From an uncultured euryarchaeote (GTDB taxonomy: Archaea; Thermoplasmatota; Poseidoniia; Poseidoniales; Poseidoniaceae): 34,192 bases of DNA. The notes under the pieces were generated by a model. The model was not told where the DNA came from, ran no database searches, and worked only from the letters and a program-made list of their open reading frames with translations. Positions 39 to 14,004 of this stretch are shown one piece after another. Where the stretch lies: the NCBI GenBank assembly GCA_937897005.1, contig CALCOQ010000139.1:1-34192 (forward strand), written 5' to 3'. A program made the position numbers and the translations under genes. Numbering within the stretch: position 1 is the stretch's first letter; each line of letters begins with the position of its first letter.

Positions 39-2303
39 TCAACGTACGGTTGAGCCATTTGCTATTTCCCCATCGATGGTGACCAAACGAACGCCTCCTG
101 TCCCATCGTCAGCAGCGAGGAGCATGCCTTCTGACATGACGCCTCGGAGTTTACGAGGTTTAAGATTGGCAACAAAGACCACCCGCATACCCTCCATCTG
201 CGATGCACTGTAATATTCTTTCAACCCAGCGCAAACAGATCTACCTTCAGATGTTCCATCATCTATTTTGACCACCATCAGTTTATCTGCATCGGGATGT
301 TCATCCACTGATGTTATCGTTCCTGTTCTCAATTCAACTTGCATGAATGTCTCAAAATCAAGCCATGTCGTTCCTTCTGGTGCTTCTTCCATTTCTTCGT
401 CCCCCTCATTCTTACCCTTCTTCCCACCTTTGATACCATCTCCCATCTCATCTGAGGTGAGGGCAGCATCATCAGCATAGGATTGTTCTTCAGCGAGTAT
501 CTGCTCAAGATCGAGTTTCTGGAACAATGGTTCCGGTGGGCTATCGTTCCATTTCATTTCACTGGACCAATCGGTTGCAGAGCCCCAATCCATCTCACTG
601 ACATCACCTTCTTCTCCAAGAGCCTGCCAAAGCCTTTGTGCGCTGAAGGGAATGAAAGGTTGACTGACTATGGCCAGTAATCGAGATACTCTCCAAGAGA
701 AGGCGAGTGATGCGAGCGCTCCAGATGCATCTTCATCGTTTTGATCCTGTGGCTTGAGAAATTTCCATGGAGCCGCATTCTGAAGAAGCTGATTACCGAA
801 TTGGGCGATATTCATCACTCCGCGCAGCGCTTCCTTGTATCGATGCTTATCGAGGCTTTCACCAACCTTGAGGAACAATTCCTCGCTCTTCTCCATCAAG
901 GAATGAACCATCTCACCCCTTTCAAATATTTTCAGTGGATTCTCCATTTGTTCTCCAGTGTCCAGCCGTTGAGCCAAAGTCAGAACTCGATGCACGAAAT
1001 TCCCATGACAGCCAATCAATTCAGAGTTTATCTTCTCAACAAAATCAGGCCAATTGAAATCAGTATCATGATTCTCCGGCATATTGATTCCAAGATAGTA
1101 TCTGAGAGTATCAGGATCAAAGCGTTCCAGGAATGAAGGGAGCCAGACCGCGTGTTTGCGGCTTTTTGAGAATTGACCGCCTGCCAACATCAGGTATTCC
1201 ATCGCCGGAACATTGTCCTCCAAGTGCAGGTCTCCTGCTGCAGGCAGCGAGACTTCATCTTTGATGGTCAGACCGTTGGCAGCATGGTTCAATCCCATTA
1301 TCAGGGCTGGCCAAATGACCGTATGGAAGGGGATATTGTCCTTGCCGAGGAAATAGAGATGCCGTGGTTTCTCTCCAGAATCGGAGATTCTCCACCACTT
1401 TTCCCATGCATCATCACGACTGGAATATCTATCAGACCATATCTTGGCGCATGAAAGATACCCCTGCACCGCTTCAAACCAGACATAGACACACTTTCCC
1501 TTCCATTCTTCTTCTTCGAGTGGGATGGAAATACCCCAGTCGAGATCTCTGGTGATTGCACGTGGCCGCAGGCCCATATCCAACCACTGTTTCGTCATCG
1601 CTCTGACATTGGGCTTCCAGTAGGGCATTCTTTCAGTTGCATGTTCAACCAGGCGTTGTTGGAACAGATCCAATCTGTAGAACAGATGGTCAGTATCTCT
1701 GATCTCGATTTCTGCTTCGGGGTTCATTTTGGAGCGGGGATTCAGCAATTCATAGGCCTCGTATGTGGTTCCGCATGTGTCGCATTGATCCCCTCGTGCA
1801 CCCTCTGCACCACATTCAGGACATTCTCCTTCCACATATCGATCTGGAAGAAAACGCCCCTCACCATCAGTTCGCTGTTCGTAGTATTGCTGCATTGTCT
1901 TTCGTTCAAACAATCCCGCCTGAAAAAGAGAGGTGAAATTCTCTTGAACGATCTTCTTGTGCATTGGGTCACTTGTACGGTTGAACAATGCTCCTCCGAA
2001 TTCCTCTCCACGACAATCAATATTTGGCTGCCACATGCATCCTAGATTGAGTAATGCTTCTGTATTGGTTGCATGGAATTCATCAACAATCTCCTGAGGA
2101 GTGACACCTTTCTGCTCAGCACTGACAGTGATTGGCGTTCCATGTTCATCAGAGCCACTGACCATCAGTACGCGATTGCCTTTCGCTCGTTCGTATCTGA
2201 ACTGGATATCAGGTGGTAGGTAACATCCAGCAACATGGCCAAGGTGCAGGGGCCCGTTAGCATAGGGCCATGCTACACATATCAGTACATGTTGACCAGT
2301 CAT
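39..2303 (-). CDS. metG: Methionyl-tRNA synthetase with C-terminal tRNA-binding (Trbp111/EMAP-like) domain
   Basis: AWPYANGPLHLGH (HIGH motif), GSDEHGTPI, Zn knuckle CPEC..CDTC, YVWFEA, GKDNIPFH, QFSKS (KMSKS variant), and C-terminal HPDADKL..NLKPRKLRGVMSEGMLL OB-fold. Start moved to ATG 2303 (MTGQHVLI) because the longer ORF overlaps the divergent gene. Confidence 0.97.
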   Translation of the reverse strand: MTGQHVLICVAWPYANGPLHLGHVAGCYLPPDIQFRYERAKGNRVLMVSGSDEHGTPITVSAEQKGVTPQEIVDEFHATNTEALLNLGCMWQPNIDCRGEEFGGALFNRTSDPMHKKIVQENFTSLFQAGLFERKTMQQYYEQRTDGEGRFLPDRYVEGECPECGAEGARGDQCDTCGTTYEAYELLNPRSKMNPEAEIEIRDTDHLFYRLDLFQQRLVEHATERMPYWKPNVRAMTKQWLDMGLRPRAITRDLDWGISIPLEEEEWKGKCVYVWFEAVQGYLSCAKIWSDRYSSRDDAWEKWWRISDSGEKPRHLYFLGKDNIPFHTVIWPALIMGLNHAANGLTIKDEVSLPAAGDLHLEDNVPAMEYLMLAGGQFSKSRKHAVWLPSFLERFDPDTLRYYLGINMPENHDTDFNWPDFVEKINSELIGCHGNFVHRVLTLAQRLDTGEQMENPLKIFERGEMVHSLMEKSEELFLKVGESLDKHRYKEALRGVMNIAQFGNQLLQNAAPWKFLKPQDQNDEDASGALASLAFSWRVSRLLAIVSQPFIPFSAQRLWQALGEEGDVSEMDWGSATDWSSEMKWNDSPPEPLFQKLDLEQILAEEQSYADDAALTSDEMGDGIKGGKKGKNEGDEEMEEAPEGTTWLDFETFMQVELRTGTITSVDEHPDADKLMVVKIDDGTSEGRSVCAGLKEYYSASQMEGMRVVFVANLKPRKLRGVMSEGMLLAADDGTGGVRLVTIDGEIANGSTVR

Positions 2304-2422
2304 CTGACCACCGATATTGAGGCCACACTGCGTCATGATATGGTGATTTCCTAATCGACAACCCCTAATAACTTGAATCTTCACAGTGTGTTGTCGCCTC
2401 GCACAGGAGGGCGCACCCACCA

Positions 2423-3466
2423 ATGGTTTCCACCCTACTGATTTTGTATGCCGGGCTCGCCCTTGTGGTTTCTTTCCTTTGCAGTCTTTTAGAAAGTGTT
2501 CTGCTAAGTATTTCTCCTTCACATATCCAGGTGATGCAGAATAGGAAACAAAAAGCCGGGGAGATATGGTCCAGACTCAAAAACAACGATTCGGTCAGAC
2601 CGTTGACTGCCATTTTGACATTGAACACCATTGCCCATACAGTTGGTGCAGTAGGTGTTGGGTCAGTTGTTCATCAGGAGTATGGAAATGAATGGGTGGC
2701 TATTGCCTCGGCTATTTTGACAGTTGCTGTATTACTGTTATCAGAGATTCTTCCTAAAACTATAGGCTCTGCATACTGGAAAAAATTAGCCATTCCAATG
2801 GCGTATGTGACCAATGTATTGACCCTCGCACTAACAATTATCGTGGTCCCAATAGAGTGGTTCCGCAAGTTATTACCACAGGCTCAGAGGACAACAGTCA
2901 CTCGTGATGAATTAGCTGTTCTTGCCGATATCGGAGAAGAGGAGGGGACCCTTGAAGAAGATGAGGAGAAGGTGATATTGAATCTGTTGAGATTGGCTGA
3001 AATAAACATTGAGGAGATAATGACCCCTAGAGTTGTGGTCACTGCATTCCCCGCAGAATATACCGTTGAGCAGGTATTGGAGGAACACCCTATGCTCAGA
3101 GTGTCAAGAATCCCGGTCTATGGAGGGAATATCGATGAACTTCTAGGATTTGTCATACGTTCGGAAATTCTAATGGCTGCCAGTAAGAATCAATGGGAGA
3201 CCAAACTCAAAGATTTGATGAAACCTCTAGAGTTCATCAACGAAGGGGATAGTGTAGACCAATTGTTGGATATCTTCATCAAGAAACGTCAACAGATAAT
3301 GGCGGTCACCGATGAATTCGGTGGCACCTCTGGAATAGTCACATTTGAAGATGCGATTGAGACACTCTTGGGTGAAGAGATAGTTGATGAAACCGATGAG
3401 GCAGAGGATATGCGCGATGTCGCATTGGCTCTGTCCAGCAATGGTAATTCCGAATCAGAGGAGTGA
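2423..3466 (+). CDS. CNNM (DUF21) + CBS-pair membrane protein (CorC/HlyC-like, putative Mg2+/Co2+ homeostasis)
   Basis: SFLCSLLESVLLS, AILTLNTIAHTVGA, SEILPKTIG, IMTPRVVV, SRIPVY, DEFGGTSGIVTFEDAIETLLGEEIVDETD. GGAGG at 2406-2410 precedes the ATG. Confidence 0.92.
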   Translation: MVSTLLILYAGLALVVSFLCSLLESVLLSISPSHIQVMQNRKQKAGEIWSRLKNNDSVRPLTAILTLNTIAHTVGAVGVGSVVHQEYGNEWVAIASAILTVAVLLLSEILPKTIGSAYWKKLAIPMAYVTNVLTLALTIIVVPIEWFRKLLPQAQRTTVTRDELAVLADIGEEEGTLEEDEEKVILNLLRLAEINIEEIMTPRVVVTAFPAEYTVEQVLEEHPMLRVSRIPVYGGNIDELLGFVIRSEILMAASKNQWETKLKDLMKPLEFINEGDSVDQLLDIFIKKRQQIMAVTDEFGGTSGIVTFEDAIETLLGEEIVDETDEAEDMRDVALALSSNGNSESEE

Positions 3467-5246: not shown

Positions 5247-6374
5247 TCAACTTCCATATTGTGAACCGGCCTCACTGTAAATAGCGAATTCAGTCGATTG
5301 AGTGAATGCCTGTATGTCATCTTCGGGTAGATCCAATAACAGTGAATCCACCATTCCGAAGAACTCAATCCTCTCATTTTCACCAGCATTTCCTGGATCA
5401 CTGGCGACCGCAGCATACAACTCAAAGGAATCACTGCGGATGAACGAATCGGGATCGGGCAACTTGGCCAATAGATTGTCAACAATAGAAACGAATTCAG
5501 CAAAGATATCTGAATCCTCGGCCTGCACTTCAATCTCTTCCTCATCTTCGATTTCAAGCGATGACAATGGCTGTTCTCCTTGAATAACGGCCTTGATCGA
5601 TTTATGTTCGCTGATCAACTGTTCTAATTTTGGCTTGAGCTTCCTCAATTTCGATGTCTGGCTCTTCTGTTTAGCCAACTGGTACTTTGGTTTCAATTTC
5701 TTGATGTTGGCTTCAAGTTCACTCTTACGCGCACTTAAATCCTCTAGAGTTTGGGAATCGAGGACATGCTCTGAATCATCATCTTCAGACATCTCTTCAA
5801 TATCCTCTTCTTCTTCATGAGATTCTTCCTCTATTTCTTCAAGTTCTTCTTCATCTTCATCTAGAAGTTCAATTGTGGGGGCATCTCTTATCTCGGCTAT
5901 CTTAGAGTCATGTTCAGCCTTCCGCTTCACGATTATCTCACGATCCAATTGGTGACCGAAACGGTCAGCATATCTATCGAGAAGACTACCAACTTCACCT
6001 TCGCCTAAACGATCAATATGGCCATAGACTTGTTGCAGAGGCTTACTGCTGCCCCGCTTCCATAGGGAGTCATATCCATCTTTCTTCTTCTCCTTGGTCA
6101 TATCAGGGGGTGCGAGACCAGAGATTGTGGGAGCAGAGGAACCTTCCAAGACACCCTTTGCAGGTTTGGCAGGAGAAACTGGAGGTGGTGGGACCGGAAT
6201 TACATCTCCTGATGGAGGCGGAGGGGGAGGGATGGCAGCGGCTGCACCAGGGGGTGGAGGAATGGCAGCGATTGCACCAGGGGGTGGAGGAATGGCAGCG
6301 ATTGCACCAGGGGGTGGAGGAAGACCCCCCATGGCAGGTGGCGCAGCACCCTTCTTCTTCTTCTTGCGTCCCAT
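5247..6374 (-). CDS. Hypothetical protein: basic N-terminus, polyproline repeats, acidic tracts and predicted coiled coil
   Basis: 375-aa ORF with GGGTGA RBS-like sequence before the ATG. MGRKKKKK, repeated PPPPG, E/D-rich stretches and a heptad-like segment LEDLSARKSELEANIKKL. Confidence 0.85.
   Translation of the reverse strand: MGRKKKKKGAAPPAMGGLPPPPGAIAAIPPPPGAIAAIPPPPGAAAAIPPPPPPSGDVIPVPPPPVSPAKPAKGVLEGSSAPTISGLAPPDMTKEKKKDGYDSLWKRGSSKPLQQVYGHIDRLGEGEVGSLLDRYADRFGHQLDREIIVKRKAEHDSKIAEIRDAPTIELLDEDEEELEEIEEESHEEEEDIEEMSEDDDSEHVLDSQTLEDLSARKSELEANIKKLKPKYQLAKQKSQTSKLRKLKPKLEQLISEHKSIKAVIQGEQPLSSLEIEDEEEIEVQAEDSDIFAEFVSIVDNLLAKLPDPDSFIRSDSFELYAAVASDPGNAGENERIEFFGMVDSLLLDLPEDDIQAFTQSTEFAIYSEAGSQYGS
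6231..6320 (-). repeat. 30-bp coding tandem repeat x3 encoding PPPPGA(I/A)AAI
   Basis: Unit aatggcagcgattgcaccagggggtggagg is exact at 6261-6290 and 6291-6320 and near-exact at 6231-6260. No spacers. Confidence 0.95.
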
Positions 6375-6471: not shown

Positions 6472-7758
6472 TCATGAGAGCAATGAGCCCCAACCCTTGA
6501 GGACCACGAACGCTGCTGCAGCCTCAGGCATCTCCATTACATCTCCTGCTGACCCTTCAGCATGGAATTCGCCAATACGGGTATTGATATCTTCAGCGTT
6601 GATTTCAATTTTCATTTTTCCATCCTGTGGCAATGCAACAGCCTCAGTCAATGGGTCGAATGGGTTGCCACCATCCGGGTCCAAGCGGTTGAGCGGGAAT
6701 TCAGTCACTCTCAATCCACATTTTCCATGTAGTGATGTTGGATATCTAATGACCCTGTGGCAGTCGATAGTGACTACTTCATCGGTTTCACCAGCACTGC
6801 CTAGTACAACCGCGGAATCATTCTGTAGAATATCGATGAATGCGTCTCTATAATAATTCGAATCACCACCCCTTCCTCCAAGCGCATTCAGATTACCTTC
6901 CTCCAGTTTCGCTCTTCGTGTTGGATGAGCAACAAGTTCTGCAATATCTTCGACAGCTTTCTTTCCACGACTCCGCTTCAGGCCACGAATTCTAGCGGAC
7001 CTCTTCAATGAATCAACATAAGTATCGATAATCAATTTCACTTCTTTCCCTTCCCCTTCTCTGACTTTATCCAATTTAGAAAGGGTCTGTGAAAGACCAG
7101 TTCGTAATCTGAGGGCCCAGCCGCTGGCATCTGAATCCGCCGAACGAGGTAGTAAGGAGGTGACGTCAACTCCATCCCCTCTGATATGTGATACCAATTC
7201 TCGTCTCGCTTCGCTATCAAGATGGGCGAGTTTCGGGTCGCGATAATGAAGATGAAAACCTCTGTGGCCGGAAAATGTCAATTGCAGGTATTTTTCTTCG
7301 AATCCGAACTCGGGTTCCAAGAAATCATTCCAGAGCCGCCATGCCTGTTCTCTGATCTGCTCAAGCATTCCGATGAAGTCCGTATCGACAACTCCTGGTA
7401 GATGATCACCATCGAGATCGAAAATCAAGTCAGCACCCAGCCATCCTTTCTCTTTCATTTTGTAGATGGTAGGATCTTTCCAATATGCTGTGCTGTAGAA
7501 TACGGAATGGGGTGTTCTATCAATCAGGTGATGTTTGATGCTGCTGGTATCGGGAAATCCAATATGCCTTTTTGGCACCCCTCCGCCAAATGGTAACAAC
7601 ATCCACTCTCTTGTTCTCAACCGTGGAGGGGTCCATGGGGTAAATGTCCGATAATGTTGTTCAAATCGGTGCGCGAATACAGCCCAGCCCTTGACCATGG
7701 AACATGCCCCCGGTCCCTCTCTGAGGCTGAGGGGTGATGAATGACGCGGTAAGGGCAT
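6472..7758 (-). CDS. priS: DNA primase small (catalytic) subunit, archaeo-eukaryotic primase
   Basis: PHSVFYSTAYW, KGWLGADLIFDLDGDHL (DxD), FSGHRGFHLH, DEVVTIDCHRVIRYPTSLHGKCGL. ATG 7758 overlaps the upstream stop (TGATG). Confidence 0.95.
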   Translation of the reverse strand: MPLPRHSSPLSLREGPGACSMVKGWAVFAHRFEQHYRTFTPWTPPRLRTREWMLLPFGGGVPKRHIGFPDTSSIKHHLIDRTPHSVFYSTAYWKDPTIYKMKEKGWLGADLIFDLDGDHLPGVVDTDFIGMLEQIREQAWRLWNDFLEPEFGFEEKYLQLTFSGHRGFHLHYRDPKLAHLDSEARRELVSHIRGDGVDVTSLLPRSADSDASGWALRLRTGLSQTLSKLDKVREGEGKEVKLIIDTYVDSLKRSARIRGLKRSRGKKAVEDIAELVAHPTRRAKLEEGNLNALGGRGGDSNYYRDAFIDILQNDSAVVLGSAGETDEVVTIDCHRVIRYPTSLHGKCGLRVTEFPLNRLDPDGGNPFDPLTEAVALPQDGKMKIEINAEDINTRIGEFHAEGSAGDVMEMPEAAAAFVVLKGWGSLLS

Positions 7759-8003
7759 CAACGATAGAAGCGCTTCTCAGCGTCCTTGCCTGCAGTTGCT
7801 GCGCCACGTCCTGTTATCTTCTGGTAACAATCCCAACAGGCATAATGCTCGTCAATCGGTATCGATTGACCAAAAGTCAAACGAATACCGCAACCATGGC
7901 ATAATGGTCCAAGCTCACCATTTGGAGATTGGGCCAGAGGAACGTGGTCATGCGGCATCAGTATCGCTATTGCGTTGGGGTACAGGTCTTTGAATGTGAG
8001 CAT
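7758..8003 (-). CDS. Small Cys4 zinc-finger protein
   Basis: 81 aa with CHGC-x17-CWDC. Starts immediately after the upstream stop with GGTGA before the ATG, and its stop overlaps the priS start. Confidence 0.75.
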   Translation of the reverse strand: MLTFKDLYPNAIAILMPHDHVPLAQSPNGELGPLCHGCGIRLTFGQSIPIDEHYACWDCYQKITGRGAATAGKDAEKRFYR

Positions 8004-8489
8004 TCACCATTTGGAATTCGCAGCGTCAGGGCCATGCGAGAACTGCAACAGATCCAGAGCAACTTCACAAGATTCAGAGATTTCTTGGTTAGGGTCATCG
8101 AGATGTTTGCGAAGTATTGATCCAATCTCGGTACTACCGATCGCCCCCATAGCCTCAGCTGCTTCATGCCTGACCATCACATGCTCCTGTGCATCATTCA
8201 AGATATTGACCAATGCAGGCAATGCTTGCCGATCTTGCATCTGCCCGAGCACATATGCCAATTCGTGCTTCAATAATGTCGAATGGCATGAAAAACCGCT
8301 GCATAATGCATCAATCGCCTCCTCGCCACCAATATTTCGTAATGAAAAGAGCGCTCGCATTCGTTGAAACATCCTCTCCTCTGAATCCAGTAAGGTCCGT
8401 TTCAATGATGAGACATCTGAGTTAGATGAGGGAGGTGCGGGGTCAACCGAACCGAATTTACTGACTCCTGGAACGCCATCATCATCCAT
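8004..8489 (-). CDS. Half-length deoxyhypusine hydroxylase (DOHH)-like HEAT-repeat protein
   Basis: SVDPAPP, RMRALFSLRNIGG, LLKHELAYVLGQMQD, MVRHEAAEAMGAIG, ESCEVALD. Two His-Glu motifs (H75/E76, H108/E109) 33 residues apart. Confidence 0.8.
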   Translation of the reverse strand: MDDDGVPGVSKFGSVDPAPPSSNSDVSSLKRTLLDSEERMFQRMRALFSLRNIGGEEAIDALCSGFSCHSTLLKHELAYVLGQMQDRQALPALVNILNDAQEHVMVRHEAAEAMGAIGSTEIGSILRKHLDDPNQEISESCEVALDLLQFSHGPDAANSKW

Positions 8490-8491
8490 GT

Positions 8492-9376
8492 TCAGACCTC
8501 TGAGCCAATGAATTGAATTCCTTCGGCATTGAAATCTGGATTTATCAATCCGATAGCCTGGCCTTGTTTCAAAAAGTGCTTGACTGAATCTCTTCCTTCC
8601 GGGCCATAATCTATTGTCCGTTGATTGACATACATACTGACGAATCTCTCATTTGTCGCATCATCTATTCCACGTCCCCATGATTTGGCGAAAGCCAATG
8701 CCTGCTCAGGGTTTGAAATTGCATACTCTATGCTTTGTCTGGTCCATCTCGTGATTTCACTCATTATTTCCTCACCAAGATCCCTTCTGACAATATTTCC
8801 ACCAAGAGGCATCGGCCATCCATTGTTCTCCTTTGCCCACCATACCCCAAGGTCCAGATGAACTTCAAGGCCATGTTCTCTATAGGTCAATTGACCTTCA
8901 TGGATAATCAATCCCGCATCTACCCGTCCTTCAAGTACCGCTTCGAAGATCTCATCGAATGCAATGACTTCTGTCTGGACATCTCCCCAAGCCAACCTAA
9001 GGCCTAGATACGCACTTGTTTTCAACCCCGGAATTGCAATCAGGCCACTCTTCACATCATTCAAAGTCTTGCCTTCGAGTGCAACCACCATCGGCCCATA
9101 TCCCTCCCCCATACTGGCTCCACAATTCATCAATGCATATTCTTGAGATACCTCGGGAAATGAATGGATGCTGATGGCACTGACCTCAAGTTCATTGTTC
9201 ATGGCACGGTGATTCAAGGTCTCGATATCCTGCAATTCGTGAATGAATGAATATCCCGGAGTATTGATCAGACCAGTGGTCAGAGCGTGGAACATGAATG
9301 CATCATCTGGATCGGGGGAATGCCCAATTCTAATGATTCTTCTACCGCCCTCATCCACAGGGAAAGATACCACCAT
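8492..9376 (-). CDS. mqnD: 1,4-dihydroxy-6-naphthoate synthase (futalosine menaquinone pathway)
   Basis: IGHSPDPDDAFMFHAL, DIETLN, GASMGEGYGP, AGLIIHEGQLTY, DLGVWW, PMPLGG, MYVN. Confidence 0.93.
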   Translation of the reverse strand: MVVSFPVDEGGRRIIRIGHSPDPDDAFMFHALTTGLINTPGYSFIHELQDIETLNHRAMNNELEVSAISIHSFPEVSQEYALMNCGASMGEGYGPMVVALEGKTLNDVKSGLIAIPGLKTSAYLGLRLAWGDVQTEVIAFDEIFEAVLEGRVDAGLIIHEGQLTYREHGLEVHLDLGVWWAKENNGWPMPLGGNIVRRDLGEEIMSEITRWTRQSIEYAISNPEQALAFAKSWGRGIDDATNERFVSMYVNQRTIDYGPEGRDSVKHFLKQGQAIGLINPDFNAEGIQFIGSEV

Positions 9377-9517
9377 GGGTCGGCGAATCAGGGTTTCTAC
9401 TTCAAGTTAGGCGATGAGTATTGAGAGAAACAATATTGTTGATTTTTCGGTGAATGTGATGCTATTTTGGGAAAGATTCTATTTCAGTCCACGTGCTGGG
9501 GTATCGAGGGAACTACA

Positions 9518-12010
9518 GTGGTAGCGACGAGAATGTCCACACTCATGCTGGTATCAACCAGTTTCTTACTACTCACAGGACTAGCCTGTGCAGTCACTCC
9601 GAGTGGCCTTGGTTATGTTGGAGTTCACACCGCTGGGCAGCAGCATTTTGATGAGACGCTATCGGTTGCCATCTCTCCTGATGAATCAATTCTAGCTACT
9701 GGGACTGAAGGATATGTTGTCATCACCAGTATGGAGACGCGCCAGGTTCTGAAAATCATAAATGCCGAGGATGATGCAACAGTTATCGAGTTCTCTCCTG
9801 ATGGAGACTATCTTGTGGTTGGTCTCAAATCAGATAGTCCTCAGACCCGCGCTCTTCAAATGTACTCAACGAGCGATTGGAGTGAGTATGGGGATGGATT
9901 CAACAATGGGAAGAACCCCCAAGACATCTCATTTTCAGCAGATGGCGCGAAAATATTGGTCCAAGGGCAGAATAAAGATGCATTTGAATTGAGTTTTCCA
10001 GATCTGGAAGTCATTGGACATCTTGAGAATCTACATACTGACATACTCCAGTGCAGTGATTATGGTTCCGGAGGTTCCATCGCCATCACTGGTGGGTTGG
10101 ATGGAATGGTTGCCCTCTGGAACATGTCAGAACACTCCTTGGTATCTTCCATGGAGATTGAGGATTCAGAGATTGTAGATTGTCTAATAAGTCCAGATTC
10201 TTTGAGTTATTCAGTTCTGATCAATAATGGATATCTGCGAACATTCTGGTTGAATGGGACCATGGTAGATGATTCTGAAAAATATTTCATCGAGGCCAAA
10301 CAGATCAAATGGAGTGATGATGGGGATCATATTTTTGTTCTCGAGTCCTATTTGCTGCCATCATTACAACGATTGAGAGCCACGGACTGGGTGATTGATG
10401 AGATAACTAACTTCGGGCATCAAGTCGGGGTATTTGATATCACGACTGATGCAAAGACCATAGTGACAAGTACCGGTACAATACACGTGGGCATCTACCA
10501 ATCGAATTTCAAGGCACAGGGTCATGGAGAAGATGGACCGGATTTCGATGGCGATGGAATACCGGATTCCTTGGATGAAGATGATGATGGCGATGGTATC
10601 AATGATATCTATGATGTGAGTTGTTCCACAGACATTGATTGTGCCAAGTCAGCAGATTCTGAATACATCAGAAGTATTGAATTCAAGATCGAGACGCAGA
10701 GTTTGATCATCAGTGATAGTGTCACATTCAACAGATACGATTCAAATGCTTTGAGAAATCTGACCACCTCCCTATTGTCGGATGACAATCGGATAGATGT
10801 CGATGAATTGACTTGGATGTCAATAGCCATGTGTGATAATATCATTGAAAGGGATGTTGTTGACCAATGGCAGACACTGATAGAGATAGAGGGAGCACAA
10901 TTGACAAATGGATCTCTTACGTGTGACCCGATAGAGGGTATTTCTTCGAATGATTTCGGCGATCTCAGCCTTCGTGCAACATTTACCTGGGTCACCAAAT
11001 TTGATTTATCCAGCACTCCTTTGGCCCCTTATAATTTCACTATCAAAGGAATCGCAGAAGCCTCCACTGGAAGCTCTGCCCTTATCGCTCCTCAATTTCC
11101 AGTCAGTTTGGTCTTCACCAATTCAATGGCCACTGATTCATCTATCGCCCTGTGGAATAACGGAGATGGGGCTCGTGTGATTTTCATGGATGAAGTTCCA
11201 GCCACAGGTCCGGGTGTTGATGATCTGGTAATAGCCTTCATAATGGCCAATTTATGGATTCCAATAGGCAGTATCTTGGGAATCTTAGGCGGTGTGGCCC
11301 TCATTGTCAAGCAGAACAAGACTATCTCTTTCGCTCTTCTGACGAGTTCAGGGGAAAGTTTGGACGAAGATGCAGATGATGCCGAAGAGGATGCTGATGA
11401 CTCATATGATGACTACGAAGAATATGATGAGTATGAAGACTCTATTGTTGAAGGAGAGGATGATGTATGGACTCAAGAATCAGAACTATCTCCACCAAAG
11501 CCATCTCGTGGACCACCCCGTAGTTCTACCCAAAGGGCTGCTAAAATTCCTTATCATTTAGATGCAGATGAGCCGGTCAAGGCAAGACGCCGCAGAGTCA
11601 GTGATAAACAACCTACAGGCTCCAAGCGTAAAACGCTCGTCGAATCAGCGGATGATGAGGAGGAATATGATTACGGCCTCGATGGCGTGTATCATGATGC
11701 GGCATGGGAGACTGAATATGACGAGTTTGAGCCTCCGAAGGTTCGAAAGGTCAAGAAGGCCGAGGAAGAAATGGAAGAACCCGCAGAAAAGAGCAAGGGA
11801 CGTAGAAAGGTGAAGCGACGAAATCCCAAGAAATCAAAGAAGAAGGCCACGCCTGACAAAGAAGTTGTGGCCAAGAAGGTCGTGGCCTCCAAGAAACGTA
11901 TCAGGAAGTCTCCAGAACCCACAAAGAGTGAGCCAGCAGAGCCGCCAGATGATGAGGACTCAGCCATGGACAAGGCGCTTGGAATGTTGACTGGTTCAAA
12001 GGATGATTGA
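9518..12010 (+). CDS. Secreted/membrane-anchored WD40 beta-propeller protein with Asp-rich Ca-binding (TSP3-like) motif and charged low-complexity cytoplasmic tail
   Basis: Signal-like N-terminus, WD40-like repeats (SVAISPDESILATG, IEFSPDGDYL, ISFSADGAKI, TGGLDGMVALWN), DFDGDGIPDSLDEDDDGDGINDIYD, TM IPIGSILGILGGVALIV, then acidic and Lys-rich tail. Start uncertain (GTG 9518 or ATG 9533). Confidence 0.8.
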   Translation: MVATRMSTLMLVSTSFLLLTGLACAVTPSGLGYVGVHTAGQQHFDETLSVAISPDESILATGTEGYVVITSMETRQVLKIINAEDDATVIEFSPDGDYLVVGLKSDSPQTRALQMYSTSDWSEYGDGFNNGKNPQDISFSADGAKILVQGQNKDAFELSFPDLEVIGHLENLHTDILQCSDYGSGGSIAITGGLDGMVALWNMSEHSLVSSMEIEDSEIVDCLISPDSLSYSVLINNGYLRTFWLNGTMVDDSEKYFIEAKQIKWSDDGDHIFVLESYLLPSLQRLRATDWVIDEITNFGHQVGVFDITTDAKTIVTSTGTIHVGIYQSNFKAQGHGEDGPDFDGDGIPDSLDEDDDGDGINDIYDVSCSTDIDCAKSADSEYIRSIEFKIETQSLIISDSVTFNRYDSNALRNLTTSLLSDDNRIDVDELTWMSIAMCDNIIERDVVDQWQTLIEIEGAQLTNGSLTCDPIEGISSNDFGDLSLRATFTWVTKFDLSSTPLAPYNFTIKGIAEASTGSSALIAPQFPVSLVFTNSMATDSSIALWNNGDGARVIFMDEVPATGPGVDDLVIAFIMANLWIPIGSILGILGGVALIVKQNKTISFALLTSSGESLDEDADDAEEDADDSYDDYEEYDEYEDSIVEGEDDVWTQESELSPPKPSRGPPRSSTQRAAKIPYHLDADEPVKARRRRVSDKQPTGSKRKTLVESADDEEEYDYGLDGVYHDAAWETEYDEFEPPKVRKVKKAEEEMEEPAEKSKGRRKVKRRNPKKSKKKATPDKEVVAKKVVASKKRIRKSPEPTKSEPAEPPDDEDSAMDKALGMLTGSKDD

Positions 12011-12817
12011 TCAGGCGATAAGGAATTCCAGACTCCCCTCAAGTTCTAGGACTTCGGATATGAACGTAGTGAGTCCCAGCTCGGCCTCTTTGTCTAGATG
12101 ATACAGAACTTCATCGAAGTATTTGTCTATTCTTTCACTGGTGAATGAACTACGGCGTGAGCTATCACTGATGATGCGCTTACGGATGTCCTCGTCTTTG
12201 AATCGTCGAAGTGCTTCCATGAGATCTTCGTGAGCCTTACTGATCATATGCATCGGCGCTTCGCGCGGAGCTGCAAATACAGCAAACACCATTGGAAGGC
12301 CGGTGACATCCTTCCATTCCATCCCTAGGTCCATTCGTACCAGACCGGGATTCTTCTGTGCTTCATCGAGAGCTCTATCACCGATCAACAGTGCACCATC
12401 ACAGCGGGCAAGCATGGAGTCAAGATCCGGACCCATTTCCACTGGACGAGGGTCATGTCCGCGCTTCTTCAAAAGATACATCAACAATCTTCGTGATGTT
12501 GCTGAGTCAGTAGGCAATGCAACATCACGCATGTCCTCTATCTCTCTGTTGCCGAACAACAGCACACTTCCGACTGCTCCATCTGAAATGATGCCCAATT
12601 CGGGGACCAGCACCAATTCCTCTCTGTTCAATGCCCAATCGGCTGCAGGAATGGGTGCAATGAGACAATCTTTCCTCAATAGATGCCCCGTCAACCAAGC
12701 AGGGGGTGCAGCGAGAACTCTCCATTCATCTGGTAGGTCATGATACAGGGGGTCGCAATTCAGGAATGCTACGCGCCCAATGGTTCTCTGCCAGGTGGGG
12801 ACATCAACACTCATCAT
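12011..12817 (-). CDS. mqnA: Chorismate dehydratase (futalosine pathway)
   Basis: IGRVAFLNCDPL, GAVGSVLLF, SATSRRLL, ALLIGDRAL, DLGMEWKDVTGLPMVFAVF. Start overlaps the mqnE stop. Confidence 0.92.
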   Translation of the reverse strand: MMSVDVPTWQRTIGRVAFLNCDPLYHDLPDEWRVLAAPPAWLTGHLLRKDCLIAPIPAADWALNREELVLVPELGIISDGAVGSVLLFGNREIEDMRDVALPTDSATSRRLLMYLLKKRGHDPRPVEMGPDLDSMLARCDGALLIGDRALDEAQKNPGLVRMDLGMEWKDVTGLPMVFAVFAAPREAPMHMISKAHEDLMEALRRFKDEDIRKRIISDSSRRSSFTSERIDKYFDEVLYHLDKEAELGLTTFISEVLELEGSLEFLIA

Positions 12818-14004
12818 CTCACCGTCGCTAATGTTCGTGGAATATTCGTTTGGGGAGATGCTACCCGTTCAAAACGAGAGTATGTTGTATCTCTCTTGAC
12901 AGCAGAACATCCTGATCTCTCTATCAATCTGCATAGGTCATCAATTCCATGTCGCAGTGATGCATTGGAACCAGCGAGATGCATGATGGACTCCTGAATC
13001 ACTGTACCATCAATATCATCGGCACCACATCTGATGGCTAACTCAGTCAAGGAGTCGCCAATATTCATTCGATATGCTTTGATATGGGGAATATTGTCCA
13101 ACATCAGTCTACTCACAGCAATCATTCTAAGGATTTCATTACCACTGGCCAGTTGAGCCTCGGGGAGACGAGAAGAGTCGGGCAGGAATGGATAGGGAAC
13201 AAAGCATTGGAATCCAGAGGTTTCATCCTGTAATTCGCGCAGTTTGATCAGATGGTTGATTCGGTCCTCTACATTTTCAACTGTGCCGAACAACATTGTA
13301 CAGTTACTGGGAATGTCCAGTTCATGTGCTGTCCTATGAATGTCTAGATATTCTTGGCTGCTTTCCTTACCTTTGCAGATGATTTCACGAACCGAGTCAG
13401 CAAGAATCTCTGCTCCACCTCCCGGAATGCTCCCCAATCCCGCCTCTTTCAATCGAGACAAGGTATCTCTGATAGATAGTGAGGAGAGGTTGGCAAGATG
13501 TCTTATCTCCACCGCTGTCAACGCCTTGATGCTGATATGTGGAAATCTTTCACGTGTCGCACTGAAGAGACTTCTGTAATGGTCCACATCCCATTCGGGA
13601 TGCAACCCTCCAACGGAGTGCACTTCATCAATGAACTCAGCATATGGGAGAATACTGGAAATATATCCTTCGACATCGAGTGCATATGCGTCTTCTGAAC
13701 GCAACCCTCTTCGGAAGGCGCAGAATCTGCAGGCCAGAACACAGATATTGGTCTGGTTCACATGGAGATTGACATTGAAATGTACATCACTCCCAAATCT
13801 TGCTTGCTTGCATGCCTCAGCCAGTTTCATGACCGCATGAATATCTGGATGTTGTAGGAGAGCAATGCCATCAGCAGCCGAGATTCTACCCCCAATGTTC
13901 AATCTGTTCCTGATGGCATCAAGTTCAACGTCGAGACCTTCACAACTTTCGAGCAGTTCTACCTGGGTAGCTCTCCAATCCTCGAATAATCCCGGTGTCC
14001 GCAC
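12814..14004 (-). CDS. mqnE: Aminodeoxyfutalosine synthase (radical SAM, CofH/MqnC/MqnE family)
   Basis: NVNLHVNQTNICVLACRFCAF (CxxxCxxC), VHSVGGLHP, IKALTAVEI, PGGGAEIL, AVSRLMLDNIPHIKAY (MqnE-type rather than MqnC-type). Adjacent to mqnA. GTG start with GGGAG upstream. Confidence 0.82.
   Translation of the reverse strand: MRTPGLFEDWRATQVELLESCEGLDVELDAIRNRLNIGGRISAADGIALLQHPDIHAVMKLAEACKQARFGSDVHFNVNLHVNQTNICVLACRFCAFRRGLRSEDAYALDVEGYISSILPYAEFIDEVHSVGGLHPEWDVDHYRSLFSATRERFPHISIKALTAVEIRHLANLSSLSIRDTLSRLKEAGLGSIPGGGAEILADSVREIICKGKESSQEYLDIHRTAHELDIPSNCTMLFGTVENVEDRINHLIKLRELQDETSGFQCFVPYPFLPDSSRLPEAQLASGNEILRMIAVSRLMLDNIPHIKAYRMNIGDSLTELAIRCGADDIDGTVIQESIMHLAGSNASLRHGIDDLCRLIERSGCSAVKRDTTYSRFERVASPQTNIPRTLATVR

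What the first reader, a model, noticed from the sequence alone, without database searches (positions are those of the whole stretch)
8004..8489. Half-size deoxyhypusine hydroxylase: candidate homodimeric archaeal aIF5A hydroxylase and pre-duplication form of DOHH
Seen: a 161-aa HEAT protein with two His-Glu motifs 33 aa apart (KHE, RHE), its own start and stop, and tight flanking genes (2-bp gap upstream, 0-bp downstream), leaving no room for a second half. Known: eukaryotic DOHH is about 300 aa, made of two pseudo-symmetric halves with four HE motifs around a diiron centre. DOHH is generally regarded as absent from archaea even though some archaeal aIF5A is hypusinated. From my recollection of human DOHH, this protein mixes signatures of the N-half (RALF.LR, LLKHELAY.LGQMQD, MVRHEA.EA.GAIG) with the inter-half linker and C-half (SVDPAPP, GGEEA, ESCEVALD). 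Inference: a single-repeat unit that homodimerises to rebuild the four-HE diiron site, and possibly resembles the ancestor before internal duplication. An O2-dependent enzyme would fit an aerobic marine archaeon.
Basis: partly seen in the sequence, partly recalled or inferred. Interest (0 to 1): 0.9.

Follow-up and report, generated by a model that had tools for sequence, protein, structure and literature searches.

The report
Half-size archaeal deoxyhypusine hydroxylase homologue
A marine archaeon carries a conserved gene that looks like exactly one half of the eukaryotic enzyme that completes the hypusine modification of translation factor 5A, an enzyme that the literature says archaea lack.

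Summary
Window 8004..8489 (-) encodes a 161-aa, four-HEAT-repeat protein with two His-Glu motifs 33 residues apart, packed tightly between its neighbours.

It is a specific homologue of deoxyhypusine hydroxylase (DOHH), not a generic HEAT protein:
- Human DOHH (4D4Z) is hit at E=1.9e-75, and the protein aligns end to end with each half.
- The AF2 monomer overlays the human linker plus C-half at Z 21.8, rmsd 1.5 A.
- All 34 core columns on which the eukaryotic N- and C-halves agree, of 37 comparable, carry the same residue in the archaeal proteins.

The half-size form is a family. It is single-copy and about 160 aa, found in 155 of 201 genomes of the same order and in 34 further genomes of the phylum. 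It occurs almost only where cytochrome oxidase is present. The genome also encodes deoxyhypusine synthase and aIF5A.

A homodimer is predicted at 0.88, best control 0.00.

Most likely it is a homodimeric diiron aIF5A deoxyhypusine hydroxylase (about 0.6).

The "pre-duplication ancestor" reading is neither supported nor excluded, because topology tests do not resolve it.

Automatic pipelines already label it a deoxyhypusine monooxygenase. I found no paper that describes it.

The parts
8004..8489 (-). Gene for the 161-aa half-size DOHH homologue (P0001). It consists of an N-terminal DPAPP segment plus four HEAT repeats (eight helices).
   Evidence: ORF and translation. Human DOHH 4d4z_A hit at E=1.9e-75, both halves matched. 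AF2 model pLDDT 90.4 with 8 helices. VIA Z 21.8, rmsd 1.5 A over 148 residues to 4d4z_B.
8430..8450 (-). Residues 14-20, S-V-D-P-A-P-P: the conserved N-terminal segment that corresponds to the eukaryotic inter-half linker.
   Evidence: D16 and P17 are invariant, and A18 and P19 at least 90% conserved, in 44 archaeal halves. A DP[AT][PAV] motif lies in the first 60 aa of 134 of 137 half-size proteins in hand. Model residues 4..153 overlay human residues 135..285. Residues 12-20 touch helix residues 143 and 147 of the other subunit in the predicted dimer.
8262..8267 (-). First His-Glu motif, H75-E76. It aligns with human H56-E57 and H207-E208.
   Evidence: Alignment columns, where the PDB chain index is the native number plus 5. 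One search gives the chain's own numbering. Invariant in 44 of 44 sequences.
8163..8168 (-). Second His-Glu motif, H108-E109. It aligns with human H89-E90 and H240-E241.
   Evidence: Alignment. Invariant in 44 of 44 sequences. H108 lies in the predicted dimer interface and touches L72 of the other copy.
8492..9376 (-). Context only: the upstream MqnA-type menaquinone (futalosine-route) gene, 2 bp from the start codon.
   Evidence: Pfam VitK2_biosynth 1.3e-63. It lies next to the half-size gene in 9 of the 11 related loci examined. RNA-library contigs bridge this junction.
7758..8003 (-). Context only: an 81-aa Cys-rich (zinc-ribbon-like) ORF that starts right after the stop codon, followed by DNA primase PriS (6472..7761, -).
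   Evidence: ORF list. No Pfam family reaches its cut-off. A homologous ORF lies beside the gene in 10 of the 11 related loci. PriS: NCBIfam 1.7e-58.

Best explanation
The gene encodes one 'half' of a deoxyhypusine hydroxylase: an N-terminal DPAPP segment followed by four HEAT repeats that carry two His-Glu motifs. Two copies are proposed to pair around a two-fold axis, so that four His-Glu motifs face each other and bind two iron ions. This would rebuild the site that the eukaryotic enzyme forms between its N- and C-halves. With O2, the dimer would hydroxylate the deoxyhypusine side chain that deoxyhypusine synthase places on the conserved lysine of aIF5A, giving hypusine.

Shown here: the homology, the conservation of every residue shared by both eukaryotic halves, the single-copy half-size architecture across a phylum-wide family, the presence of substrate and upstream enzyme, and restriction to lineages with an oxygen reductase.

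Predicted here: the homodimer.

Inferred: iron binding, O2 use and aIF5A as substrate.
For: 1. Specific homology.
- phmmer against PDB chains gives human DOHH at E=1.9e-75, with the N-half at 116.5 bits and the linker plus C-half at 138.6 bits.
- The best natural non-DOHH chains score far lower: CpcE 1.1e-4, MTH187 1.4e-3, YibA 8.2e-3. Designed consensus alphaReps score in between.
- NCBIfam PBS-lyase equivalogs score 28 bits or less against cut-offs of 300 or more.

2. Fold.
- AF2 pLDDT 90.4.
- Foldseek finds 4d4z at E=1.1e-11, TMq 0.87, 48% identity; the next hits are at 1e-4.
- VIA gives Z 21.8, rmsd 1.5 A over 148 residues.

3. Catalytic residues.
- H75/E76 and H108/E109 align with human H56/E57, H89/E90, H207/E208 and H240/E241.
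- H56, H89, E90, H207, H240 and E241 are the reported iron ligands (PMC3306375, passage read).
- Both motifs are invariant in 44 of 44 archaeal halves.
- Two HE motifs 32 or 33 residues apart are present in all 137 half-size proteins in hand.

4. Shared conservation. Of 132 core columns, 37 have a 60% or higher consensus in each of the N-halves, C-halves and archaeal halves. In 34 of them the residue is the same in all three. None has N=C with the archaeal residue different.

5. A conserved family.
- 155 of 201 genomes of the order have a match, mostly single-copy, with open frames of about 160-200 aa.
- 109 of 401 genomes of the phylum have one, 34 of them outside the order.
- 404 stretches in species-representative genomes encode a relative.
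- All 20 divergent loci fetched encode a single half.

6. Pathway. The genome has DHS (293 bits), a second DHS-like gene, and aIF5A (109.7 bits) with the KPGKHGSAK loop.

7. Oxygen. 104 of the 109 genomes with the gene also have COX1, against 71 of the 292 without it. The COX1-free families f5, f16 and f19 (0 of 91 genomes) and f6 (0 of 48) have no copy (my cross-reading of the two tables).

8. Dimer.
- Homodimer with two Fe: ipSAE 0.88 (runs 0.89, 0.88, 0.87), best of 3 controls 0.00, at least 68% of contacts shared between runs, partner pLDDT at least 87. The interface is symmetric. In the tool's calibration the mark was reached by 20 of 30 solved one-chain pairs and 1 of 23 single chains.
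- 22 of 48 invariant or near-invariant positions lie in the predicted interface, against 20 of 113 other positions (Fisher p=3.6e-4).
Against: - No biochemical data exist for any member.
- The dimer pass may simply reflect likeness to the solved intramolecular N/C arrangement of human DOHH, as the tool itself warns. The interface enrichment is expected anyway if the active site lies there.
- There is no gene-neighbourhood link to DHS or aIF5A. In the window the neighbours are menaquinone and primase genes. In 20 divergent loci no DHS or aIF5A lies within about 1.4 kb, and the ten flanking proteins scanned are unrelated to translation.
- 46 of 201 genomes of the order lack a match, including 18 of 61 high-quality ones, and whole genera are nearly empty (g18 1 of 9, g21 1 of 8). 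The function is therefore dispensable.
- Several COX1-bearing families have no copy (f4 0 of 10, f22 0 of 9, f23 0 of 5).
- Early amino-acid analyses found mostly deoxyhypusine in the Euryarchaeota tested, and hypusine in Crenarchaea (PMC5178350, passage read). This gene was not seen outside one phylum here, so it cannot explain hypusine in Crenarchaea.
- Kin are not independent, so the COX1 association overstates its own strength.
- The RNA evidence is weak: contigs only, covering the 5' end only.
Confidence: 0.6

Rival explanations
1. It has the same fold and the same dimeric diiron site, but a different substrate. On this reading it is an O2-dependent hydroxylase or oxidase acting on another aminoalkylated protein or on a free polyamine or other small molecule, not on aIF5A.
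For: - There is no operon link to DHS or aIF5A in any locus examined.
- The gene is dispensable in many relatives.
- The genome has a second DHS-like gene beside an agmatinase-type gene, so the polyamine chemistry here may differ from the eukaryotic route.
- Euryarchaeota tested so far showed mostly deoxyhypusine (PMC5178350).
Against: - All 34 columns on which both eukaryotic halves agree are identical in the archaeal family. These include E76 and G82, which align with human E57/E208 and G63/G214. I recall, but could not check here, that those human residues are needed for binding the eIF5A substrate.
- 42-45% mean identity to the eukaryotic halves is unusually high for a change of substrate.
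- In eukaryotes DOHH has one known substrate (PMC8153317, passage read).
Confidence: 0.15
2. Rival on origin, compatible with the proposed function. The archaeal gene descends from the linker plus C-half of an early (stem-lineage) eukaryotic DOHH that was transferred and truncated. On this reading it is not a survivor of the pre-duplication state.
For: - The N-terminal DPAPP segment matches the eukaryotic linker, which precedes the C-half.
- The family HMM scores C-halves higher than N-halves: means 168 against 132 bits over 239 full-length proteins, with part of the gap due to the linker.
- ML trees place the C-halves next to archaeal sequences: FastTree 0.947 and 0.75, UFBoot 81.
- The arrangement with archaeal halves next to N-halves is rejected (AU 0.0012).
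- The gene was seen in only one archaeal phylum here, whereas I recall it as universal in eukaryotes.
Against: - The crown C-halves form a clade that excludes all archaeal sequences (support 0.94, 98 and 96). Any transfer would therefore predate the radiation of sampled eukaryotes.
- AU tests do not reject N and C as sisters: p=0.072 with outgroup and 0.495 without.
- Divergence inside the archaeal family is as deep as archaeal versus eukaryotic: 39-47% identity between the window protein and the other clade.
- The archaeal halves are closer to N-halves (42%) than C-halves are to N-halves (37%).
Confidence: 0.3
3. It is a non-catalytic HEAT-repeat scaffold or PBS-lyase-type adaptor that only resembles DOHH.
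For: Pfam sees only repeat families (HEAT_PBS 5.9e-18, HEAT_2 9.7e-14). NCBI names relatives 'HEAT repeat domain-containing protein'.
Against: - Pfam's repeat models also cover true DOHHs, as the precomputed domains show.
- The DOHH match is about 70 orders of magnitude better than that to any natural PBS-lyase-type chain.
- The PBS-lyase equivalog models fail by more than 270 bits.
- The metal-ligand motifs are invariant.
- The five generic HEAT windows used as outgroup have no HE motif.
Confidence: 0.04

Closest known systems
Eukaryotic deoxyhypusine hydroxylase (human DOHH, PDB 4D4Z/4D50; yeast Lia1; Drosophila nero), EC 1.14.99.29
   Same: - HEAT_PBS-type repeats and the same fold (Z 21.8, rmsd 1.5 A over 148 residues).
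- 48-49% identity to the human linker plus C-half. Mean identity is 42% to N-halves and 45% to C-halves.
- The His-Glu motifs have the same 33-residue spacing and align with the iron ligands.
- A DPAPP segment precedes the four repeats.
- The predicted dimer puts two halves face to face.
   Different: - One chain has four repeats and two His-Glu motifs, not eight and four.
- The active site would have to form between two identical chains.
- A dimer would carry two DPAPP segments, against one in the eukaryotic chain.
- The host is an archaeon, and the presumed substrate is aIF5A.
- One archaeal clade has a 32-residue spacing between the motifs.
Generic prokaryotic HEAT_PBS proteins (phycobilin lyase CpcE/CpcF 5N3U, NblB, E. 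coli YibA 1OYZ, Methanothermobacter MTH187 1TE4)
   Same: The repeat type and the overall alpha-solenoid.
   Different: - Sequence scores are far lower (1.1e-4, 8.2e-3, 1.4e-3).
- rmsd is 4.5-5.6 A against 1.5 A.
- The NCBIfam equivalog cut-offs are missed by a wide margin.
- These are not diiron hydroxylases as far as I recall.
Designed alphaRep proteins (e.g. 3LTJ, 6FT5, 9SAH)
   Same: They are consensus HEAT-like repeats, so phmmer scores are high (1e-12 to 1e-35) and Z is 15-18.
   Different: They are artificial consensus designs with about 28% identity, none of the DOHH-specific columns, and no biological relationship. They show why repeat-level similarity alone would be misleading.
Homodimeric relatives of internally duplicated pseudo-symmetric enzymes (recalled general pattern, e.g. 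retroviral protease versus pepsin-type aspartic proteases)
   Same: One active site is built on a two-fold axis, either by two identical chains or by two fused, diverged copies.
   Different: This is an analogy only; the folds and chemistry are unrelated. The direction of evolution (fusion of a duplicate versus fission or truncation) is not resolved here.

Membership tests
Deoxyhypusine hydroxylase (DOHH/Lia1/nero) | Family-specific sequence similarity well above that of generic HEAT_PBS proteins | tested here: met
   Human DOHH is hit at E=1.9e-75, whereas natural PBS-type chains score 1e-4 or worse. Named eukaryotic DOHHs are hit at 1e-75 to 1e-95.
Deoxyhypusine hydroxylase (DOHH/Lia1/nero) | His-Glu motifs at the positions of the iron ligands (human H56, H89, E90, H207, H240, E241) | tested here: met
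   H75/E76 and H108/E109 align with both pairs of human motifs. The ligand list comes from PMC3306375. The motifs are invariant in 44 of 44 sequences and present in 137 of 137 half-size proteins. Each chain has two of the four motifs.
Deoxyhypusine hydroxylase (DOHH/Lia1/nero) | Eight HEAT repeats in one chain, arranged as a dyad of two four-repeat halves | tested here: not met
   The protein is 161 aa with eight helices, i.e. four repeats. There is no second half in the flanks or elsewhere in the assembly. None of the 20 divergent loci has two halves.
Deoxyhypusine hydroxylase (DOHH/Lia1/nero) | Two halves packed face to face so that the four His-Glu motifs form one site (here this would need a homodimer) | tested here: inconclusive
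   The predicted homodimer scores 0.88 against a best control of 0.00, with a symmetric interface that includes H108. This is a prediction and may rest on likeness to 4D4Z. No coordinates were available to measure His-Glu distances.
Deoxyhypusine hydroxylase (DOHH/Lia1/nero) | A non-haem diiron centre | not testable with these tools
   This needs metal analysis or spectroscopy of purified protein.
Deoxyhypusine hydroxylase (DOHH/Lia1/nero) | Hydroxylation of deoxyhypusine on eIF5A/aIF5A | not testable with these tools
   The substrate and the preceding enzyme are encoded: aIF5A at 109.7 bits with the KPGKHGSAK loop, and DHS at 293 bits.
PBS-lyase HEAT-like proteins (CpcE/CpcF, NblB, YibA) | Reaches the curated equivalog score of a named PBS-lyase-type family | tested here: not met
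   NblB scores 28.4 bits against a cut-off of 300, CpcE 21.3 against 330, CpeY 16.1 against 600, and PRK09687 12.7 against 275.
Pfam HEAT_PBS repeat (PF03130) | Repeat-level match above the gathering score | tested here: met
   63.8 bits against a cut-off of 20.9, in 3 stretches. This names the repeat type, which true DOHHs share. It does not name a function.

The most novel reading that the evidence does not exclude
The archaeal protein preserves the state of DOHH before its internal duplication: a homodimeric [DPAPP segment + four HEAT] unit. On this reading the eukaryotic enzyme arose when such a gene was duplicated in tandem and fused. The DPAPP segment of the second copy became the inter-half linker. 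In the predicted dimer this segment already sits against the C-terminal helix of the partner subunit, which is where a fusion would join the chains. The gene would then be an archaeal contribution to, or an archaeal relic of, the eukaryotic hypusine pathway. Poseidoniales would make true hypusine.
Probability: 0.3. Interest if true: 0.85.

Novelty: new variant of a known kind. Interest (0 to 1): 0.75.

Why it matters
Papers and reviews from 2012 to 2021 that I read in passages state that no DOHH homologue exists in archaea, and that archaeal hypusine formation is therefore unexplained.

This family gives a concrete, clonable candidate for that step in one of the most abundant groups of surface-ocean archaea.

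It also offers a natural minimal DOHH for study. It has half the size, probably true two-fold symmetry, and one kind of chain. That makes it useful for working out how a HEAT-repeat scaffold became an O2-activating diiron enzyme.

It bears on whether the eukaryotic enzyme arose by duplication and fusion of such a unit.

It does not explain hypusine in Crenarchaea. The gene was not seen outside one phylum here, and other archaeal phyla were not searched.

Tried and rejected
- Truncated gene or assembly artefact: rejected. The same about 160-aa form with its own start recurs in 155 of 201 genomes of the order and in all 20 divergent loci.
- Second half elsewhere in the genome (heterodimer): not found. 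There is one match in the assembly at E of 10 or better, but the assembly is only 74% complete.
- Outgroup rooting with five generic HEAT windows cut from giant repeat proteins: the root fell inside the N-halves on a branch of 0.9-1.4 substitutions per site. I regard this as unreliable.
- Gene neighbourhood as functional evidence: it led nowhere.
- RNA evidence:
  - Only Logan contigs of four RNA-labelled runs could be laid.
  - Two contigs (X14 and X17, from two studies) bridge the mqnA stop and the first 90-125 nt of the gene.
  - Positions 8004..8363 had no cover, which proves nothing.
- Near-identical DNA is held by runs labelled marine or cold-seep metagenome from seven studies. One of them may be the source.
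- Distribution outside the phylum could not be tested:
  - The genome-contig scan returned its 80 best loci, all of the Poseidoniales type.
  - The ESM Atlas lists 164-170-aa HEAT clusters from Bathyarchaeota and Nitrososphaerota at score 0.95. These remain untested leads.
- Names of the unnamed full-length representatives could not be obtained. I call them 'eukaryotic' by their likeness to the named DOHHs.
- Literature:
  - Eight searches found no paper describing an archaeal or half-size DOHH.
  - Subscription-only papers are not in the library.
  - Park et al. 2006 and Kim et al. 2006 were not held.
  - No supplementary files were consulted. The supplements of large MGII genome papers could list a KEGG assignment for this gene.
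Full report
**The observation**

The window holds a minus-strand ORF at 8004..8489 that starts with ATG, ends with TGA and encodes 161 residues.
- The two His-Glu motifs are at residues 75-76 and 108-109.
- The upstream ORF (8492..9376, -) ends 2 bp before the start codon. It is a strong MqnA-type menaquinone-synthesis match (Pfam VitK2_biosynth, 1.3e-63).
- The stop codon is followed directly by the ATG of an 81-aa Cys-rich ORF, and then by DNA primase PriS.
- There is no room for a second half in the flanks, and the assembly (1.91 Mb, 363 contigs, 74% complete) has no second copy.

**What it is**

Pfam sees only repeat families (HEAT_PBS 5.9e-18, HEAT_2 9.7e-14). NCBIfam's phycobilin-lyase equivalogs fail by hundreds of bits.

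Against all PDB chains, the best hit is human deoxyhypusine hydroxylase at E=1.9e-75.
- The query aligns twice along that chain: with the N-half (116.5 bits) and with the linker plus C-half (138.6 bits).
- His75/Glu76 and His108/Glu109 fall on both pairs of human His-Glu motifs.
- Natural PBS-type chains score 1e-4 or worse in the same search. Only artificial consensus alphaReps come in between.

The iron ligands of the human enzyme are reported as H56, H89, E90, H207, H240 and E241 (PMC3306375, passage read).

An AlphaFold2 model built on 44 archaeal sequences has pLDDT 90.4 and eight helices.
- Foldseek ranks 4D4Z first at E=1.1e-11, TMq 0.87 and 48% identity. The next hits are at 1e-4.
- VIA-align gives Z 21.8 and rmsd 1.5 A over 148 residues.
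- Model residues 4..153 lie on human residues 135..285. The N-terminal S-V-D-P-A-P-P stretch therefore takes the place of the human inter-half linker.

**It is a family, not an accident**

Proteins of 150-192 aa with the same architecture are abundant in the protein collection.
- NCBI names them 'HEAT repeat domain-containing protein' from Candidatus Poseidoniaceae and Thermoplasmatota MAGs.
- JGI's pipeline names some of them 'deoxyhypusine monooxygenase'.
- The ESM Atlas clusters carry the automatic name 'putative deoxyhypusine monooxygenase'.

Whole-genome searches give the distribution.
- 155 of 201 genomes of the same order have a match, and 43 of the 61 high-quality ones do. Nearly all have one copy, with open frames of about 160-200 aa.
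- 109 of 401 genomes sampled from the phylum have one.
- 34 of those lie outside the order: f29 18 of 19, f10 7 of 9, f26 3 of 3, f28 2 of 6, and single genomes in f18, f33, f34 and f48.
- Large families have none: f6 0 of 48, f16 0 of 53, f19 0 of 24.

A scan of species-representative genomes found 404 stretches that encode a relative. The 80 kept are all of the Poseidoniales type by record title, apart from three contigs in bins labelled as bacteria.

I fetched 20 divergent loci. Each encodes a single half with two His-Glu motifs and a start codon a few residues before the conserved D-P-A-P segment.

Sequence features across the proteins in hand:
- In all 137 half-size proteins the two motifs are 32 (75 proteins) or 33 (62 proteins) residues apart.
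- 134 of the 137 have the DP-A/T-P motif near the N-terminus.
- In the alignment of 44, the invariant residues include D16, P17, H75, E76, G82, Q83, H108, E109 and E112.

The order mqnA, half-DOHH, Cys-rich ORF, priS recurs in the related loci:
- MqnA is present in 9 of the 11 loci.
- The small ORF is present in 10 of 11.
- PriS is present in all 11. In one locus from another family it lies on the other side, on the opposite strand.

**Function**

The strongest argument is column-by-column.
- Of 132 core columns, 37 have a clear consensus in each of three groups: 90 eukaryote-like N-halves, 90 C-halves and 35 archaeal halves.
- In 34 of these the residue is the same in all three groups.
- In 2 the archaeal residue follows C, and in 1 it follows N.
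- In none do N and C agree against the archaeal proteins.

So everything that both halves of the eukaryotic enzyme keep, the archaeal protein keeps.

The substrate pathway is present:
- a deoxyhypusine synthase (293 bits);
- a second DHS-like gene beside an agmatinase-type gene;
- aIF5A (109.7 bits) with the K-P-G-K-H-G-S-A-K loop.

An O2-dependent enzyme should be confined to aerobes, and the distribution fits that.
- 104 of the 109 genomes with the gene also have haem-copper oxidase subunit I, against 71 of the 292 without the gene.
- The five exceptions are incomplete MAGs in families that otherwise have the oxidase.
- The oxidase-free families have no copy.
- Several oxidase-bearing families also lack the gene, and related genomes are not independent, so this is supporting evidence and not a test.

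**The dimer**

One chain offers two of the four His-Glu motifs and there is only one gene, so a catalytic site like the human one needs two copies.

The complex predictor was run with two copies, two Fe ions and my alignment of 44 rows.
- The three runs scored 0.89, 0.88 and 0.87, against 0.00 for the best of three controls.
- At least 68% of contacts were shared between runs, and the partner pLDDT was at least 87.
- In the tool's calibration the mark was reached by 20 of 30 solved one-chain pairs and 1 of 23 single chains. The tool notes that these counts hold only roughly, because I used my own alignment and a ligand.
- The interface is symmetric. It includes H108, the S70-L72 turn before the first motif, G82-Q83, the E-S-C-E-V-A-L-D helix, and residues 12-20 (the DPAPP stretch), which touch residues 143 and 147 of the other copy.
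- 22 of 48 invariant or near-invariant positions are in the interface, against 20 of 113 others (p=3.6e-4).

Because human DOHH has been solved, the pass may only show likeness to its internal N/C packing, not that these chains bind. I could not read coordinates to measure the metal site.

**Origin**

Mean identities over the core are 42% between archaeal halves and N-halves and 45% between archaeal halves and C-halves. N- and C-halves are only 37% identical to each other.

Trees:
- N-halves and C-halves of sampled eukaryote-like proteins form their own groups. C has support 0.94, 98 and 96 in three analyses.
- The archaeal proteins fall outside both, in two well-supported clades. One holds the window's order and its close relatives, the other the rest of the phylum.
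- A recent transfer of a truncated eukaryotic half is therefore unlikely.

The deeper question is open.
- ML trees put C next to archaeal sequences with weak to moderate support (0.75, UFBoot 81).
- With an admittedly poor outgroup, AU values were:
  - 0.072 for archaeal halves outside N+C;
  - 0.086 for archaeal halves with C;
  - 0.0012 for archaeal halves with N, which is rejected.
- Without an outgroup, none of the three arrangements of the four groups is rejected (0.495, 0.632, 0.213).

The DPAPP segment fits either story.
- It could be the ancestral N-terminal cap that became the linker after fusion, or a linker kept after truncation.
- 79 of 98 full-length representatives have the motif in the linker.
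- 4 of the 98 also have a DP-x-P string before the N-half, which may be chance.

**What is known**

Passages in PMC3306375 (2012), PMC5178350 (2016), PMC6105217 (2018), PMC7773846 (2020) and PMC8153317 (2021) state that no DOHH homologue or orthologue has been found in archaea. Two 2026 reviews that I searched by term do not mention one.

Eight full-text searches found no description of an archaeal or half-size DOHH. The library lacks most subscription journals, and I saw no supplements.

Automatic annotation has already put the DOHH label on some members. The name is therefore not new. What I did not find in print:
- recognition that this is a half-size form;
- recognition that it is probably homodimeric;
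- its spread across the phylum;
- its contradiction of the textbook statement.

**Limits**

- Cluster names could not be looked up.
- Other archaeal phyla could not be searched.
- The RNA evidence is limited to contigs over the 5' end.

**Verdict**

- The DOHH homology is secure.
- The homodimeric aIF5A hydroxylase reading is the best explanation, at about 0.6.
- The ancestral reading stays possible, at about 0.3.

Noticed in passing
L003 (G000 contig C63) 792..1706 (+) and 1689..2675 (-): A second, weaker deoxyhypusine-synthase-like gene (304 aa, 129 bits) lies tail to tail with a 328-aa ORF that I read by eye as agmatinase/arginase-type. I ran no family scan on it. This recalls the agmatine-based deoxyhypusine route described for Haloferax (PMC5178350). 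The genome also has a canonical DHS on C188.
   Followed up: partly
window 7758..8003 (-): An 81-aa Cys-rich ORF (two C-x-x-C pairs) starts immediately after the stop of the half-DOHH gene. It recurs at the same place in 10 of the 11 related loci. No Pfam family reaches its cut-off.
   Followed up: partly
window 8492..9376 (-), 12011..12817 (-), 12814..14004 (-): Two VitK2_biosynth (MqnA/MqnD-type) genes and a radical-SAM CofH/MqnC-type gene suggest a futalosine-route menaquinone cluster around the finding.
   Followed up: partly
window 5247..6374 (-): A 375-aa ORF has a proline-rich N-terminus with a thrice-repeated A-I-P-P-P-P-G-A unit and a very acidic middle part. It has no Pfam match.
   Followed up: no
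window 9467..12010 (+): An 847-aa protein has a WD40-type beta-propeller at the N-terminus, a likely membrane span, and a long acidic then lysine-rich tail.
   Followed up: no
L038, L052, L087 (search for related loci): Three contigs that carry the Poseidoniales-type gene (58-67% identity) sit in genome bins titled Yoonia sp., Deltaproteobacteria bacterium and Rhodobiaceae bacterium. This is probably mis-binning rather than bacterial copies.
   Followed up: no
L016-L026 and proteins P0389-P0483: The second archaeal clade (Thermoplasmatota outside the window's class) has 32 rather than 33 residues between the two His-Glu motifs, through a one-residue deletion in the loop before the second motif.
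   Followed up: partly
L017 552..1358 (+): In one divergent genome the gene just upstream of the half-DOHH is a VIT1-family iron transporter. This is a single case.
   Followed up: no
ESM Atlas hits: Clusters of 164-170-aa HEAT-repeat proteins from Bathyarchaeota and Nitrososphaerota, and a 164-aa 'deoxyhypusine monooxygenase family' cluster from Ascomycota, score 0.95-0.96. Whether they carry His-Glu motifs is unknown.
   Followed up: no
proteins P0137, P0172, P0204, P0232: Four of 98 full-length DOHH representatives have a DP-x-P string before the N-half as well as in the linker. This could be a remnant of a duplicated N-terminal cap, or chance.
   Followed up: no
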